Assembly: GCA_951406725.2 (NCBI GenBank)
Contig: OX597828.1
Location: 65,534,001-65,598,000 of the forward strand
Reading direction: 5' to 3'
DNA: 64,000 nucleotides
Origin: Octopus vulgaris
Taxonomy: Eukaryota
Every line of letters starts with the position of its first letter. Position 1 is the stretch's first letter. Of this stretch, positions 2,341-43,060 are shown piece by piece. The translations under genes and the position numbers were made by a program. A model generated the notes under the pieces. The model was not told the DNA's origin. It did no database searches and saw only the letters and a program-made list of their open reading frames with translations.

Positions 2341-2354
2341 GTCTCTCTCTCTCT

Positions 2355-2395
<41 letters not shown>

Positions 2396-2477
2396 GTCCC
2401 GGGTTGAGCCGGGGTTAACCACTGTAAATAAGGTACTCAATACATAGCTGAGTAAAGTAATTTTATTTTATAGAAGG

Positions 2478-2528
2478 AGCTTCAACAGGACTAGAACTGT
2501 TTCATTCAGATATAATCTTCAGGAAGCT
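2478..2528 (-). ncRNA. Type I hammerhead ribozyme in the left pLTR
   Basis: Minus strand reads AGCUUC-CUGAAGA-uuauaucugaau-GAAA-CAG uucuaguc CUG-UU-GAAGCU: intact core, 6-bp stem I, GUU triplet. Confidence 0.8.
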
Positions 2529-2980
2529 GGCTGTCAAAATAAGTTCTGGTATTTATGCATTTAGGCAGATTTAATAGAGTGGTGGTGGGGGGCGTTTTTG
2601 GGGTAGGTTGGTATTTAAGAGATAAACAGGACACAAGCTATTGTTCTTAGGGGAGTGGTCAAAAGGCCAGAGTGTTTTTTGAAATGAGAAGAATCAGTGA
2701 GAAAATAAATAAATGAATAAATAGAATAAATGAATAGAAACAGATATATGGGATGGGATTTTAGGTAAATTAGAAGACAATTGCTTTTTGGTGGTCAAGA
2801 AGAGGTAGGCGGTTTGTTATTGTTAGGTGGAGGGAATAAATGGATAAATATACATGAAAAAACATAAAATAAATATACATACAAACACGCATACATACAC
2901 ATGCGAATATACATATGTATACATACATACGCACATATATATATACATACATACACATACATACACATACACATAAACAT

Positions 2981-3020
<40 letters not shown>

Positions 3021-3084
3021 CATATACATATACGTACGTGCACCTACATACACACACACACACGCACATATATATACACATATA

Positions 3085-3134
<50 letters not shown>

Positions 3135-3176
3135 CACATATATATATATATATACAAATACACATAAGTATACATA

Positions 3177-3311
3177 TGCATTTCTGAGAGCTTGGAGATC
3201 TTATTCGCCAAAAGCCCTCTCCTCAACAAGATCTCGGAACACTCCCCAAACTGTATGCACAAAATCTATGCAAACTACAAAAATTACAGACCCACCCGGC
3301 CACCCGATTGA
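3177..3311 (+). pseudogene. C-terminal fragment of a PLE GIY-YIG endonuclease
   Basis: CISESLEILFAKSPLLNKISEHSPNCMHKIYANYKNYRPTRPPD*, matching the PLE C-terminal motif CLxEKLxIL...LLNKRSE..xCxH. Confidence 0.8.
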
Positions 3312-3553
3312 CGACACCCTACCCACAAAACCCATCACCCCCCCACCCCCGCCCCCACCACACCACCTTTCCTTCATCACCCCAATTACCTTCTCTCCTA
3401 AGACTATATACATATATATATATGTATACATATGTATATATGCACATATATGTATATATGTGCATATATATGTATGTGTGCATATGTATATGTACATGCG
3501 TATGTCTATGCGTATATATGTGTGTTTGTATGTATGTGTATGTATATGTATAC

Positions 3554-3595
<42 letters not shown>

Positions 3596-3596
3596 G

Positions 3597-3643
<47 letters not shown>

Positions 3644-4220
3644 GTTTGTATGTGTGTGTATGTATTTATTTATGTATGTATGTGTGTACATGTGTATATA
3701 TTTATATGTATGTATATGCATATGTATATGTTTATGTATTTATATATGTGTGCATATATGTGTATTTATATTTTTATATGTGTGTATGTATGTATATGTG
3801 TATATGGGTATATATTTATGGATGTATGTATATATATATATATATATATATAATGGGCATGTAGATTTATGTATGGGTATATATATATGTGTATATATGT
3901 AGATATGTATGTGTATGTAAGTGTATGTATGTGTATGTATGTGCATGTATGTATGTGTGTATGTATGTATATGCATGTGTGTATTTATATATGCATATAT
4001 GTATTTATATGCGTATATATGCTTATATATGCGTATATATATTTATATACACATAGGTTTTATATGTGCATGTGTGTTTATATATGCGTGTATATATTTA
4101 TGTGTGTGTTTGTTTGTACATACGTATTTATATGTATGTGTTTATATATGCATAATTATGTATATGTTTATATGTACGTAGGTATATTTATGTATGTATA
4201 CTTATATGTATTTGTATGTG

Positions 4221-4256
<36 letters not shown>

Positions 4257-4810
4257 TATGTATATATGTGTGTATATATGTATATATATGTGCGTGTGTG
4301 TGTGTATGTAGGTGCACGTATGTATATGTATATGTATATGTATATAATATATATATATATATGTGTGTATGTTTATGTGTATGTGTATGTATGTGTATGT
4401 ATGTATATATATATGTGCGTATGTATGTATACATATGTATATTCGCATGTGTATGTATGTATATTTATTTTATATGTTTTTTCATGTATATTTATCCATT
4501 TATTCCCTCCACCTAACAATAACAAACTGCCTACCTCTTCTTGACCACCAAAAAGCAATTGTCTTCTAATTTACCTAAAATCCCATCCTATATATCTGTT
4601 TCTATTCATTTATTCTATTTATTCATTTATTTATTTTCTCACTGATTCTTCTAATTTCAAAAGACACTCTGGCCTTTTGACCACTCCCCTAAGAACAATA
4701 GCTTGTGTCCTGTTTATCTCTTAAATACCAACCTACCCCAAAAACGTCCCCCACCACCACTCTATTAAATCTGCCTAAATGCATAAATACCAGAACTTAT
4801 TTTGACAGCC

Positions 4811-4862
4811 AGCTTCCTGAAGATTTCATCTGAATGAAACAGTTCTAGTCCTGTAGAAAGCT
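4811..4862 (+). ncRNA. Type I hammerhead ribozyme in the right pLTR
   Basis: AGCUUC-CUGAAGA-uUUCaucuGAAu-GAAA-CAG uucuaguc CUG-UA-GAAAGCU: intact core, GUA triplet. Confidence 0.8.
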
Positions 4863-4873
4863 CCTTCTATAAA

Positions 4874-4945
<72 letters not shown>

Positions 4946-4949
<4 letters not shown>

Positions 4950-9339: not shown

Positions 9340-9737
9340 TGGTTTCAAATGTTTTCACAAGGCCAGCAATTTCAAGGAGGGGATAAGTCGATTACATCGA
9401 CTCCAGTTCTCAACTGGTACTTATTTTATCGACCCCGAGAGGATGAAAGGCAAAGTCGACCTCGGCAGAATTTGAACTCAGAACGTAGCGGTAAACGAAA
9501 TACCTATTTCTTTACTACCCACAAGGGGCTAAACACAGAGAGGACAAACAAGGACAGACACACGGATTAAGTCGATTATATCTTCCCCAGTGCGTAACTG
9601 GTACTTATTTAATCGACCCCGAAAGGATGGCAGGCAAAGTCGACCTCGGCGGAATTTGAACTCAGAACGTAACGGTAGACGAAATACCGCTAATCATTTC
9701 GCCCGGCATGCTAACGTTTCTGCCAGCTCGCCGCCTT
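9340..9737 (-). mobile_element. SINE A with a nested or chained second SINE A
   Basis: Two cores in tandem, junction at GAAATACC|TATTTCTTTAC; TSD-like TTATCCATTC(G/A)TAAATACT on both sides. Confidence 0.85.
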
Positions 9738-11077: not shown

Positions 11078-11772
11078 ATCGGTTTCAAATTTTGACACAA
11101 GGCCAACAGGTGTGGAGAAGGAGGGGGTAAATTGATTACATCGACCCCAGTGCTCAACTCTTATTTTATCGACCCCGAATAGATGAAAGGTAAAGTCGAC
11201 CTCTTCGGAATTCGAACTCAAGCATTTTGTCCGGCATGCTAGCGATTCTGCCAGTTCACCACCTTCTACCAAACATTGGTTTCAAATTTTGGCATAAGGC
11301 CAGCAATTTCGGGGAAGACAATAAGTGAATTATGTCGACCCCCCGGTATTGGAGTGGTACTCATTTTATCGACTCCAAAAGAATGAAATGCAATGTCGAC
11401 CTCAGCGAAATTCGAACTCAGAACATAAACACAAACCCGATGTGCTAACGACTCTGCCAGCTCGCCACATAATATCAAAGAAATATTCATTCGTGCTTTG
11501 TCAGTAACGAGATCTGAACTCGCAACACGTGAGCAAAGATACCCATTTCTTTACTACCCACAAGGGGCTAAACACAGAGGGGACAAACAAGGACAGACAA
11601 ACGGATTAAGCCGATTACATCGACCCCAGTGCGTAACTGGTACTTAATTTATCGACTCCGAAAGGATGAAAGGCAAAGTCGACCTCGGCGGAATTTGAAC
11701 TCAGAACGTAAGGGCAGACGAAATACGGTTACGCATTTCGCCCGGCGTGCTAACGTTTCTGCCAGCTCGCCA
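11078..11772 (-). mobile_element. Three tandem SINE A copies
   Basis: Copies at ~11078-11265, 11276-11468 and 11545-11772. Confidence 0.85.
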
Positions 11773-12750
11773 CATGATATCAAACAAATATTCATTCGTG
11801 CTTTCTCAGTAACGAGATCTGAACTCGCAACACGTGAGCAAAGATACCGCTTTGCTAATCCACCATCACTGCTTTCTTTGTATCACTCGATAAAGTCAAT
11901 GACGACATCAACCTATATTAAACGATCCACACCTGTTTAAGTGACTTCTATTAAAGAAAAGAATATTAAAAAAGAGAACGAATTGAAAAACGAGAAACTA
12001 AAACAAGATAGAAAATTGATATAAAGGTTTAAGAAGGAATACCGAAACATGAAAGATGCTTCGTAATATATTCTGGTGAGCTGTCCATCTAAACTGATCT
12101 ATAAATCAGTCGTATCGATTTTTATTATGATTGCTGAATGATATAAAACACAGCTGATGGAGCAAGATATTGGTAACGATACACTACGCATGCGCACACC
12201 AACAAACACAAACTTTAGAATATGTAATTACTCAGGCAGAAATATGTGTGATGTATATATGCATGTGTATATGTGTGTGTATATATGTATACATATGTAT
12301 ATGCGAGCGTATATTTGTGTTTGTGCGAATTCATATGTGCATACATATATATAATATTTTATATGTATTATGTATGAACATGTATATGTATTTATGTACA
12401 TACACAGAGGCATACATATATATATATATATTATTATATCTATATTTGCATATGTAATGCAATTGTATATGTGAGTGTATATAGCTTTATACATTTTCTA
12501 CACATTCACTAGATAAACAGTACGATTGGATTTTAGTGAAATTACATTATCAAATGGATGTGTATCAAGAATTGGTAAGTTCAATTAAAGTTGGAGCTTA
12601 ACTCAATATCTGGAATTGGCAAGATACAAGCGGTCAAGATATGTTTTTGGATCAATGACAATTATTCTCAAACAACATATACACGCACAACAATACACAC
12701 ATACATGTATATTTACATAGCCATACTTATTACAAATATTGATTATAGAT

Positions 12751-38364: not shown

Positions 38365-38978
38365 AGTTTCAGATTTTGCCACAAGGGCAGCAATTTTGGT
38401 GAATGGGGTTAAGTCCATTACATCGATCCCAGTGTTTCATTGATACTTAATTTATCGACCCCGAAAGGATGAAAGGCAAAGTCAACCTCGGCGGGATTTC
38501 TTTACTACTCACAAGGGACTAAACACAGAGAGGACAAACAAGGACAGACAAATGGATTAAGTCGATTATATCGACCCCAGTTCGTAACTGGTACTTATTT
38601 AATCGATCTCGAAAGGATGAAAGGCAAAGTCGACCTCGGCGGAATTTGAACTCAGAACGTAGCGGCAGACGAAATACCGCAAAGCATTTCGCCCAGCGTG
38701 CTAACGTTTCTGCCAGCTCGCCGCCTTCCACGGCAGACGAAATACCTATTTCTTTATTACCCACAAGGGGCTAAACACAGAGGGGACAAACAAGGACAGA
38801 CAAACGGATTAATCGATTACATCGACCCCAGTGCGTAACTGGTACTTAATTTACCGACCTCGAAAGGATGAAAGGCAAAGTCGACCTCGGCGGAATTTGA
38901 ACTCAGAATGTAACGGCAGTCGAAATACGGCTACGCATTTCGCCCGGCGTGCTAACGTTTCTGCCAGCTCGCCGCCTT
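38365..38978 (-). mobile_element. Head-to-tail SINE A array (three cores)
   Basis: Junctions at ~38497 and ~38746 (GAAATACC|TATTTCTTTA). Confidence 0.9.
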
Positions 38979-39642
38979 CGTCCATTTTTACGTTTCGTTC
39001 ATCATCTCGGTGCAACAATACGATGATTAACATCTCGGCCTCACTCACTAAATTTAATTAGCGTAGAAGACCATCAACAGTTGGATACATTTCAGCCAAT
39101 AACAATGATCAAATCGACTGGAATCTTCTACTCCAAAATATGACTTTAAGGACTTCACTAGGTGGTGCTAAGTTAGACATGGCTTGGATCATTAATGACC
39201 GACACCTCTCTGTTATCAAAATTATCTGTGTGTGGTGATGTGTGAGTCTGGGGGTGCGTACGTGCCTGCATGTCATTGTGCGTATTCTTGTGTGTCTGTG
39301 TATGTGTGTGAATGTGTACGTGTGTGTATGTGTGTGTGTGTGTGTGTGTATGTGTGTGTGTGTGTGTGCATGTATGTATATATTGACTTAAGATCAATTA
39401 CTCAACAAGTAACGAATATTTACTGAAGAGATTCATTCAACCGAAACCTGTTCTTAGTCACTACTGGTCATAACTAGGAATTGAAAAGTCAGTCAACCGC
39501 GATAATATTTGATTTCAGATTGTAGAAAGGATGTTATTAAATATTGTAAGGACTTTTTGAACGGTATTCTGTTCTTCCTCGCAATGCCTGAATGGCTTGT
39601 GAGTAGTTGTGTGTGTAGAATATATGTACATAAGTACACACG

Positions 39643-41519: not shown

Positions 41520-43060
41520 ATAGTGTTTGCAAATATGTCAAAATGCATTCCATCACGAGAACGGCTCTCCGGTCTTACCAACTTCTTATCTATTGCTGTT
41601 GTTTTTGACACATCGAGAGTAACTGGAACAGCATCTTCATCACTTTGAGAGCATCCTTTCGATAACCAGACAATAACTGAGGGAGAACCAGATCTACCGA
41701 GGACTTGTTCCTGCATGTTACTAAATAGTTGATTTGCCCTTGAAAATTTTGGCAAAAGCAATGTAGTTGCATTTGACATCAGTAAATACTTCAAGCATGA
41801 GGACTAATTAGCTTCGTCATCCGCCTATGGGGTACATCTGTTTCTAATTACATGGATCGGAATATTCCCATCAGACCGCACCAATTTCAGTGTGCATTGA
41901 TGAAACTCCCTCAGGAGTTTAAATGCTGATGTTCCTCAACATGTGGTAATATCTACCACAATCTTCTTTCGGGACAATATATTTGTCATTCCTAGCTGAT
42001 ATTGTTTTTTACTCCGCCTCAATATTCCGCGCACATACATCGTTTACATACTGCATAGACACCTCACGCCAGATATACACTAACTCCATAAAAAGAGACC
42101 TTGAGAGCATCCTATAATTTTTTCTACTCTTGGCACAAGGCCAGAAATTTGGGAGGAGGGAGCCAGTCGATTACATCGACCCCAGTACGTAACTGGTACT
42201 TAATTTATCCACCCCGAAAGGATGGAAGGCAAAGTCAACCTCGGCAGAATTTGAACTCAGAATGTGAAGTCAGACGAAATACCCATCTATACTACCCACA
42301 GAGAGGACAAACAAGGACAGACAAACGGATTAAGCCGATTATATCGACCCCAGTGCGTAACTAGTACTTAATTTATCGACCTCGAAAGGATGAAAGGCAA
42401 AGTCGACCTCGGCAGAACTTGAACTCAGAATGTGAAGTTAGGCGAAATACCTATTTCTTTACTACCCACAAGGGGCTAAACACAGAGAGGACAAACAAGG
42501 ATAGACAAGTGGATTAAGTCCATTATATTGACCCCAGTGCATAACTGGTACTTAATTTATCGACCCCGAAAGGATGAAAGGCAAAGTCGACCTCGGCGGA
42601 ACTTGAACTCAGAACGTAGCGGCAGGCGAAATATCGCTAAGCATTTTGCCCATCGTGCTAACGGTTCTGCCAGCTCGCCGCCTTAGAGAACATCAAATAA
42701 TGAGATAATGCTAATCGAGACTACACCAACCTCGGTTGCTAAGCGATGACTCATTCAAAAGGCACGATCTCAATCATTAGACAAATCTAAGAAACAGCTG
42801 TGTATCTCGCCTCATCTTGTCAGGAACAATACACAATTTTAAACTTCAAATTTACTGTACATTCCAGGTCTCACAATCACAATTCATCGTGGAAACAACC
42901 ACACATCCACATATAATGATATAACATTTCTAAAAATGCATCATAAAGACCGTATCCAAAAGTTCTATCAGCTAATTGGCAAATATTCACTTACCAGCAT
43001 CACTTCAACCCTCTTAGATCACAGACTTTTTTCTTCTTTTACTTCTATATATTTGAGAGC
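41520..43060 (+). mobile_element. CR1/Jockey-like reverse-transcriptase remnant interrupted by a SINE array
   Basis: RSTEDL, AFDISK and NADVPQ (GVPQGS) motifs, heavily degenerate. Confidence 0.6.
42128..42683 (-). mobile_element. Head-to-tail SINE A array (three cores)
   Basis: Junctions at GAAATACC (~42280, ~42450); flanks TTGAGAGCATCCTATAAT / TTAGAGAACATCAAATAAT. Confidence 0.9.

What the first reader, a model, noticed from the sequence alone, without database searches (positions are those of the whole stretch)
2394..4878. Penelope-like insertion with inverted ~700-bp pLTRs, each carrying an intact hammerhead ribozyme
Seen: 2462-3176 is the reverse complement of ~4194-4878, including mirrored microsatellite patterns. 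Between the arms sits a 44-aa GIY-YIG C-terminus. Both arms contain stem I-CUGAAGA-stem II-GAAA-stem III-UH hammerheads pointing outward, with GUU and GUA triplets and a palindromic CUAG in loop 3. Known: PLEs have tandem or inverted pLTRs containing hammerheads, and minimal ones can act as dimers. Inference: a fairly young 5'-truncated, inverted insertion. A read-through transcript of either strand would carry one self-cleaving ribozyme and could fold into long dsRNA, a potential ADAR or small-RNA substrate. The element also carries microsatellites inside its own repeat, so it may be spreading them.
Basis: partly seen in the sequence, partly recalled or inferred. Interest (0 to 1): 0.8.

Follow-up and report, generated by a model that had tools for sequence, protein, structure and literature searches.

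The report
Two-armed Penelope insertion with damaged hammerheads
This is a real but dead, two-armed remnant of a Penelope-like jumping gene whose two self-cutting RNA motifs both carry mutations; it matters because about 950 tiny mirror-image relatives in the same genome likely record where the element's RNA starts and suggest that each insertion is built from two separately primed DNA copies.

Summary
The inverted repeat is real (2462-3176 vs 4193-4878; 97.3% over the 414 non-repetitive bases). The 44-aa peptide is 93% identical to the C-terminus of a 713-aa RT-endonuclease protein with the motifs of the Hydra clade of Penelope-like elements. The insertion starts at 2392: the left arm carries a 70-bp tail, and both ends sit in (TA)n. 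The hammerheads are not intact: each has a lesion seen in 1 of 249 family arms. The internal microsatellite is element-borne. Family-wide, 75 of 76 two-ended insertions have one tailed and one short end. About 950 head-to-head twin-hammerhead palindromes of about 200 bp join at the ribozyme's first bases, 29 nt below a TATA-like box. There a non-templated G precedes the first base in 37 of 68 (TA)n-joined ends, against 1 of 51 and 0 of 24 at control positions. Likely mechanism: a capped, uncleaved sense RNA starting at the ribozyme is primed at two sites, and the two cDNAs are joined head to head. Cleavage, capping and transcription of this locus are untested. The locus is ordinary; the family pattern bears on an open question.

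The parts
2354..2391 (.). Left (TA)n target tract
   Evidence: 129 of 132 tailed ends with a located end run into (TA)n
2392..2461 (-). 70-bp tail, left arm only; in full-length copies this is 5' UTR leading into the ORF; ends just past a small AC-rich hairpin (hairpin read by eye)
2462..3176 (-). Left arm: 5'-truncated inverted copy of the distal 3' UTR/pLTR, including about 310 bp of microsatellite
2478..2528 (-). Left hammerhead, damaged (stem II broken by two changes; GUU triplet, site between 2484 and 2483)
2551..2557 (-). TATA-like box 29 nt upstream of the left hammerhead's first base (predicted promoter)
   Evidence: position read
3177..3311 (+). 5' end of the right arm: last 44 codons and stop of the Hydra-type RT-endonuclease ORF
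3312..3404 (+). C-rich proximal 3' UTR
3405..4464 (+). Element-borne degenerate TA/TG microsatellite block in the 3' UTR
4465..4878 (+). Distal 3' UTR/pLTR of the right arm with the short end about 20 nt below the cleavage site
4782..4788 (+). TATA-like box 29 nt upstream of 4811 (predicted promoter; predicted start site 4811)
4811..4862 (+). Right hammerhead (GUA, site between 4855 and 4856) with a private one-base insertion in stem I
4874..4946 (.). Right (TA)n target tract
   Evidence: 134 of 136 short ends run into (TA)n

Best explanation
This is a dead, 5'-truncated, two-armed insertion of a Hydra-clade Penelope-like retrotransposon in a (TA)n tract, and it was likely made by two separately primed reverse-transcription events on sense RNA from one source copy. 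Inferred steps: the endonuclease would nick both strands of the (TA)n target; one nick would prime at the distal site (tailed end) and the other at the proximal site (short end); the two cDNAs would stop at different points (about 785 and 1700 bases) and be joined head to head. The source RNA likely starts, capped, at the first base of the hammerhead and is likely uncleaved when copied. When priming uses the 5'-proximal copy of these sites, both cDNAs would run off the RNA end, giving the roughly 950 palindromes of about 200 bp. The two hammerheads in this window have since mutated and are predicted to cut poorly.
For: SHOWN. Clade motifs in a natural 713-aa ORF (vs section 11 of PMC8557442). 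One tailed plus one short end in 75 of 76 two-ended pairs, with no short/short pair, although tailed and short arms are equally common (134 vs 136). In this window neither arm is nested in the other; the short-ended arm reaches further upstream in 6 of 20 larger pairs. Partner arms are nearest neighbours among 45 arms in 6 of 6 other testable pairs. The window's arms share 3 variants found in no other of the 45. Junction hot spot: 958 matches at the ribozyme start; 61 for this subfamily against 2 in a window a little further upstream. TATA-like box at -29 in 115 of 128 arms with an intact upstream region, where the -1 base is never G. G at -1 in 37 of 68 distinct (TA)n-joined ends (my count of the first 100 of 157 rows), against 1 of 51 at +3 to +7 and 0 of 24 at the cleavage site. 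18 of 66 mini junctions are perfect zero-loop palindromes, which two annealed cDNA ends explain without added bases. KNOWN. Purified anole Poseidon protein nicks and extends both strands, starts at two internal sites that delimit the tail, and uses uncleaved RNA (PMC11167929).
Against: No transcript 5' end, cap or cleavage was observed directly. Copying of a cap as an extra G is recalled; searches found no paper for it. G follows 37% of (AT)n run ends in this DNA (1468 of 4002), so the cap reading rests on the two positional controls, and those differ in sequence context. 31 of 68 ends have another base at -1. The right arm's partner ranks only 5th of 44 by distance. Shared private variants could come from gene conversion between arms. 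Non-nested arms could come from later central deletions. 4 of the 50 junctions listed extend upstream of +1. 69 junctions lie in loop 3 or near the cleavage site, so some templates may be cleaved. One tailed/tailed pair exists (L077, arms 8 kb apart).
Confidence: 0.68

Rival explanations
1. Fold-back or self-priming: one cDNA (or an antisense RNA, as proposed in PMC3846280) is copied back on itself to give a palindrome, and central deletions later make the arms unequal. Element identity is unchanged.
For: Explains the same-source arms and the one-tail rule simply. The second commonest mini junction (18 of 66) fits a small snap-back loop. Short ends are ragged while tailed ends are precise. Long palindromes tend to lose their centres (own knowledge).
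Against: Needs deletions inside the tailed arm in 6 of 20 larger pairs, about 985 bp in this window. Zero-loop junctions (18 of 66) and a one-base loop with an extra base on both arms (L189) are hard to prime by snap-back. An extra G on the sense 5' end points to a sense template.
Confidence: 0.22
2. The mini-palindromes amplify as their own non-autonomous unit, and their junction marks a structural stop of reverse transcriptase rather than the RNA start.
For: High copy number; two junction forms make up 36 of 66; stem I could stall the enzyme.
Against: 25 junction forms among 66, across three subfamilies whose markers match on both arms in 64 of 66. Single-armed and full-length copies begin at the same base. 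The TATA-like spacing and the extra G are unexplained.
Confidence: 0.07
3. This locus is a functional ribozyme/dsRNA module.
For: The arms could form a very stable duplex (-709 kcal/mol). A>G differences absent from a comparison run appear in family contigs of runs guessed to be RNA.
Against: Both hammerheads carry private lesions. The arms are no better conserved than other copies (10 and 8 minority substitutions in 411 bases against a median of 1.5%). The A>G hint concerns another subfamily's copy.
Confidence: 0.03

Closest known systems
Hydra clade of C-terminal EN+ Penelope-like elements (Craig et al. 2021, PMC8557442), including Hydra-1_Obim
   Same: Single RT-EN ORF; RW[KR], DKT, CxCx5C, CxxC and CxH motifs; (TA)n targeting; type-I hammerhead with U next to both core boxes, as in many entries of its File S2; inverted 5'-truncated copies (noted for Penelope-13_HM).
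   Different: A different family from Hydra-1_Obim (protein and hammerhead differ by eye; not aligned). Unit about 3.9-5.2 kb against generally under 3 kb, owing to a microsatellite-filled 3' UTR. Loop 3 has 8 nt against at most 3 nt in the Hydra entries of File S2. Tail 70 bp against the usual 30-40 bp.
Poseidon from Anolis (PAc) in vitro system (Frangieh et al. 2024, PMC11167929)
   Same: Two internal start sites delimiting a tail, AT-rich target, both strands extended, uncleaved RNA as template, AC-rich stem-loop near the start.
   Different: There the hammerhead overlaps the start codon and priming is described as non-homologous. Here both ends coincide with AT-rich bases that match the target, and the text I read has no count of one-tail-per-insertion, run-off minis or a start site at the ribozyme.
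Adineta vaga Penelope insertions with inverted pLTRs, tail and junction palindromes (Arkhipova et al. 2013, PMC3846280)
   Same: Head-to-head inverted pLTR, tail on one side, TATA plus initiator-like sequence in the pLTR.
   Different: That paper favours self-priming on an antisense template and leaves the question open; the data here favour a capped sense template and two primers.
Minimal hammerheads of PLEs (Cervera and De la Pena 2014, PMC4209133); animal non-LTR retrozymes (10.64898/2026.07.22.740005)
   Same: Type-I motif, palindromic stem/loop 3; pairs on opposite strands about 100-700 bp apart were already noted.
   Different: Longer loop 3; minis are head-to-head with a gap of about 8 nt at one fixed point, not tandem repeats like retrozymes.

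Membership tests
Penelope-like element, EN+ | Single ORF with RT and C-terminal GIY-YIG endonuclease | tested here: met
   713-aa ORFs in 2 of 39 ORF starts. The protein itself has no Pfam RT or GIY-YIG hit; relatives at 37-41% identity hit GIY-YIG (E 1e-5, above cut-off) and RVT_1 (below cut-off). YRDD and YIG motifs are aligned.
Penelope-like element, EN+ | pLTRs in tandem or inverted arrangement, tail at one end | tested here: met
Penelope-like element, EN+ | Hammerhead motif in the pLTR | tested here: met
   Motif in 249 parsed arms; no Rfam hit
Hydra clade | RWK-type N-terminal motif and DKT in place of DKG | tested here: met
   RWR and DKT in P0001; RWK in 8 of 9 aligned relatives
Hydra clade | CxCx5C linker, CxxC and CxH around the conserved E and N, no CCHH motif | tested here: met
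   Read; absence of CCHH judged by eye
Hydra clade | Insertion into (TA)n | tested here: met
   263 of 268 located ends
Hydra clade | Phylogenetic placement with named Hydra families | not tested
   Named sequences were seen only in a paper supplement and were not used in a tree
Hydra clade | Generally short (<3 kb) | tested here: not met
   Tandem period 5193 bp in L155; descriptive rather than defining
Hammerhead ribozyme (window copies) | Core boxes plus three intact stems | tested here: not met
   Core boxes present; stem II broken (left), bulge in stem I (right)
Hammerhead ribozyme (window copies) | Self-cleavage | not testable with these tools
   Needs an in vitro assay
Naiad/Chlamys PLE | N-terminal endonuclease, no canonical hammerhead | tested here: not met
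   Endonuclease is C-terminal
Non-LTR retrozyme | Head-to-tail tandem repeats each with a hammerhead | tested here: not met
   Arms are head to head

The most novel reading that the evidence does not exclude
The genome holds a fossil record of about 950 abortive Penelope reactions showing that the element's mRNA is capped at the first base of its hammerhead, that each insertion uses exactly one distal and one proximal primer on sense RNA from one source, and that the ribozyme's palindromic loop 3 serves mainly to dimerise two template RNAs for this twin priming, with cleavage as an off-switch that removes the cap. The B-subfamily variant with a longer loop palindrome (predicted dimer -15.2 vs -12.8 kcal/mol) would fit this.
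Probability: 0.25. Interest if true: 0.8.

Novelty: new variant of a known kind. Interest (0 to 1): 0.52.

Why it matters
How Penelope-like elements form their inverted ends and one-sided tail, which strand is the template, and what the hammerhead does are stated as open in PMC3846280, PMC8557442 and PMC11167929. This family gives countable genomic predictions (one tail per insertion, a fixed start base, an extra G) and a natural intact ORF for a direct in vitro test. It also seeds hundreds of short hairpin-forming palindromes and carries about 1 kb of microsatellite per long copy, though against 2.8 Gb that is a small share. The single locus in the window is an ordinary decayed copy.

Tried and rejected
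Rfam: no hit at gathering score, no hammerhead family at E<=10. Plain folding did not give the hammerhead fold for either arm and z-scores were not significant; the common copy also has a low predicted share of that fold (0.001), so this says little. Pfam found nothing meaningful on family proteins or the window peptide; no PDB match. Naiad and selenocysteine recoding: rejected (C-terminal endonuclease; the intact ORFs read through with ordinary Cys codons). Assembly artefact: rejected (see observation check). In vivo cleavage from junctions at the cut site: inconclusive; 24 (TA)n-joined ends lie there, and 20 are explained by TA microhomology. Expression: no RNA holder listed; only contigs were available, which cannot show starts, strand or level. 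Target-site duplication: hidden in pure (TA)n; one clear 15-bp case and one possible 18-bp case among 58 minis. The binomial test used a count that does not match and is not relied on. Literature searches that did not turn up the mini-palindrome, start-site or cap pattern; the library lacks most subscription papers, and Lunse et al. (PMC5785218) was not held. Supplements of PMC11167929 and PMC3846280 were not read and may bear on novelty.

Full report
OBSERVATION. The window lies on contig C15 of a 2.8-Gb assembly. The host looks like an octopus-type cephalopod; that is a recalled resemblance and was not tested. Bases 2462-3176 are the reverse complement of 4193-4878 (91.3% with slippage; 97.3% over 414 unique bases). 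The left arm continues 70 bp further out, to 2392. Both ends run into (TA)n. The junction at 3176/3177 is abrupt. The right arm begins with the last 44 codons of an ORF, followed by a C-rich stretch, about 1060 bp of degenerate TA/TG repeat, and 414 bp of unique sequence ending about 20 nt past the hammerhead's cut site.

IDENTITY. A DNA search found 1332 candidate places, 40 of them scored. Of 39 ORF starts examined, 2 give a 713-aa protein whose end matches the window peptide at 41/44. It shows RWR, DKT, YRDD, CxCx5C, a YIG motif, CxxC and CxH, conserved in 9 aligned relatives. These are the features given for the Hydra clade (PMC8557442: abstract, passages, sections 11 and 12, supplement searches and part 2 read). 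That supplement lists one octopus family, Hydra-1_Obim, which differs by eye. No tree with named members was built. At least three subfamilies exist (stem II variants in 125, 95, 14 and 7 of 249 arms); the window copy belongs to the second.

HAMMERHEADS. The U next to each core box is usual for Hydra hammerheads, and U or A at the cleavage position is common there, so GUU alone is not fatal. Within this family, however, 248 of 249 arms have GUA, and the left arm's broken stem II and the right arm's extra A each occur once. Predicted energies of the catalytic fold are +0.2, -2.9 and -6.7 kcal/mol for left, right and a common copy. Loop 3 has 8 nt, longer than in the listed Hydra entries; the segment is predicted to dimerise at -12.8 kcal/mol, or -15.2 in one B variant. 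PLE hammerheads are reported to cleave poorly and as dimers (PMC4209133, parts 1-2 of 4 read; PMC6765202, passages). Cleavage is untested here.

MICROSATELLITE. The block is homologous across copies (94-311 of 693 informative 14-mers shared, against 2-16 in controls), so the element does carry it. Units are about 3.9 kb (this subfamily, estimated from its parts) to 5.2 kb.

AGE. The arms differ at 11 of 411 sites, 3 of them at an alignment edge. If the host is an octopus and the calibration quoted in PMC13282606 applies (distance 0.09 = 25 My; passages read), that is roughly 3-4 My. Gene conversion would make this an underestimate.

FAMILY PATTERN. (1) Among 88 distinct outward-facing pairs, 76 have two terminal ends: 75 are tailed/short, 1 tailed/tailed, 0 short/short. 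The other 12 have one arm running on into the ORF. (2) Partner arms are nearest neighbours in 6 of 6 other testable pairs. In the window they share 3 variants absent from the other 43 arms, although the right arm ranks its partner 5th. (3) A junction pattern at the ribozyme's first bases has 958 matches, a few double-counted. For this subfamily it is 61 against 2 a little further upstream; 69 junctions lie further downstream, in loop 3 or near the cut site. The 58 minis measured have a median length of 198 bp, and 91 of 116 arms keep the core, stems II and III and the 3' strand of stem I. Their junctions take 25 forms among 66. (4) A TATA-like box lies 29 nt above that base in 115 of 128 arms with an intact upstream region, and the templated -1 base is C, T or A, never G. 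Where the 5' end joins (TA)n directly, -1 is G in 37 of 68 places (C 13, T 10, A 8; counted by hand from the first 100 of 157 rows). The controls give 1 of 51 and 0 of 24. Against this, G follows 37% of (AT)n run ends generally. A contig of a separate run also shows one G inserted before this base (table 5c).

MECHANISM. Shown: the counts above and the non-nested arms of this insertion (tail only on the left; ORF tip and about 985 extra bases only on the right; the short arm is the longer one in 6 of 20 larger pairs). Known: the anole Poseidon protein extends both strands from two internal sites and uses uncleaved RNA (PMC11167929, parts 1-2 of 4 read), and Penelope transcripts start in the upstream pLTR (PMC2377424, passages). 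Inferred: a capped sense RNA begins at the ribozyme; two primers are used per insertion; the cDNA ends anneal or are end-joined; minis are run-off products from the 5'-proximal sites. The extra G as a copied cap is recalled knowledge. The main rival is fold-back with later central deletion, close to the self-priming model of PMC3846280 (passages read). Whether one RNA or two sister RNAs serve as template cannot be told.

RNA. On a B-subfamily copy (L143:2715-3600), contigs from two of three runs guessed to be RNA show A>G at three places upstream of the ribozyme (one place also at low depth in the third run) that the fourth run lacks, plus loose ends with several A>G changes. The runs are not recorded as RNA and are not matched to an individual, so this is only a hint that inverted copies are edited. 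It says nothing about this locus. No host gene was identified around the insertion; this was checked only by a long-ORF scan.

EARLIER NOTES AND PRINT. Unchecked notes from this scan report similar 200-bp palindromes in other genomes, so the by-product may be general; they are leads, not support. Inverted arms, tails, (TA)n targeting and opposite-strand hammerhead pairs are all in print. I did not find the fixed start site, the extra G or the strict one-tail count in searches. Also seen: 10.64898/2026.07.22.740005 (part 1 of 5) and PMC9977147 (passages).

VERDICT. Real feature, known kind of element, overstated ribozyme integrity; the family pattern lifts interest to about 0.5.

Noticed in passing
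G000 genome-wide; e.g. L097, L104, L111-L125, L180-L219: About 950 twin-hammerhead palindromes of about 200 bp in (TA)n, plus single-armed versions that start at the same base.
   Followed up: yes
L151:3051-3973, L160:3020-3389, L164:3057-3386 (oriented coordinates): ORF fragments of 197-788 bp joined directly to the ribozyme's first bases, as if reverse transcriptase jumped from the RNA 5' end to an internal site.
   Followed up: partly
L130-L156 ORFs: 11 of 39 ORF starts stop at 501 aa and 6 at 234 aa, at shared frameshifts in C-rich stretches; both intact ORFs have a substitution in the first. May be homopolymer errors of the assembly or shared real lesions.
   Followed up: no
L152 and L155 (C1:68.81-68.82 Mb): Tandem array of near full-length units with a period of about 5.2 kb; a mini-palindrome sits inside one 3' UTR.
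   Followed up: no
L106:1390-1640: Mini insertion in an interrupted TA tract shows a 15-bp target-site duplication.
   Followed up: partly
window:59060-59884 (+): Mariner-type transposase reading frame (Pfam Transposase_1, E 2e-25).
   Followed up: partly
window:85-317, 9384-9732, 11118-11853, 38496-38979, 42297-42633: Abundant SINE-like dispersed repeat, partly in short tandems.
   Followed up: no
P0002-P0121: 1118 relatives at E<=0.001 among 8000 scored candidates, mostly unnamed, about 40% identical; the clade looks much larger than the 27 families listed in PMC8557442.
   Followed up: no
L064:7793-5457 (-), L070:8838-8329 (-): Other RT- or GIY-YIG-like reading frames inserted in or near copies of this family.
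   Followed up: no
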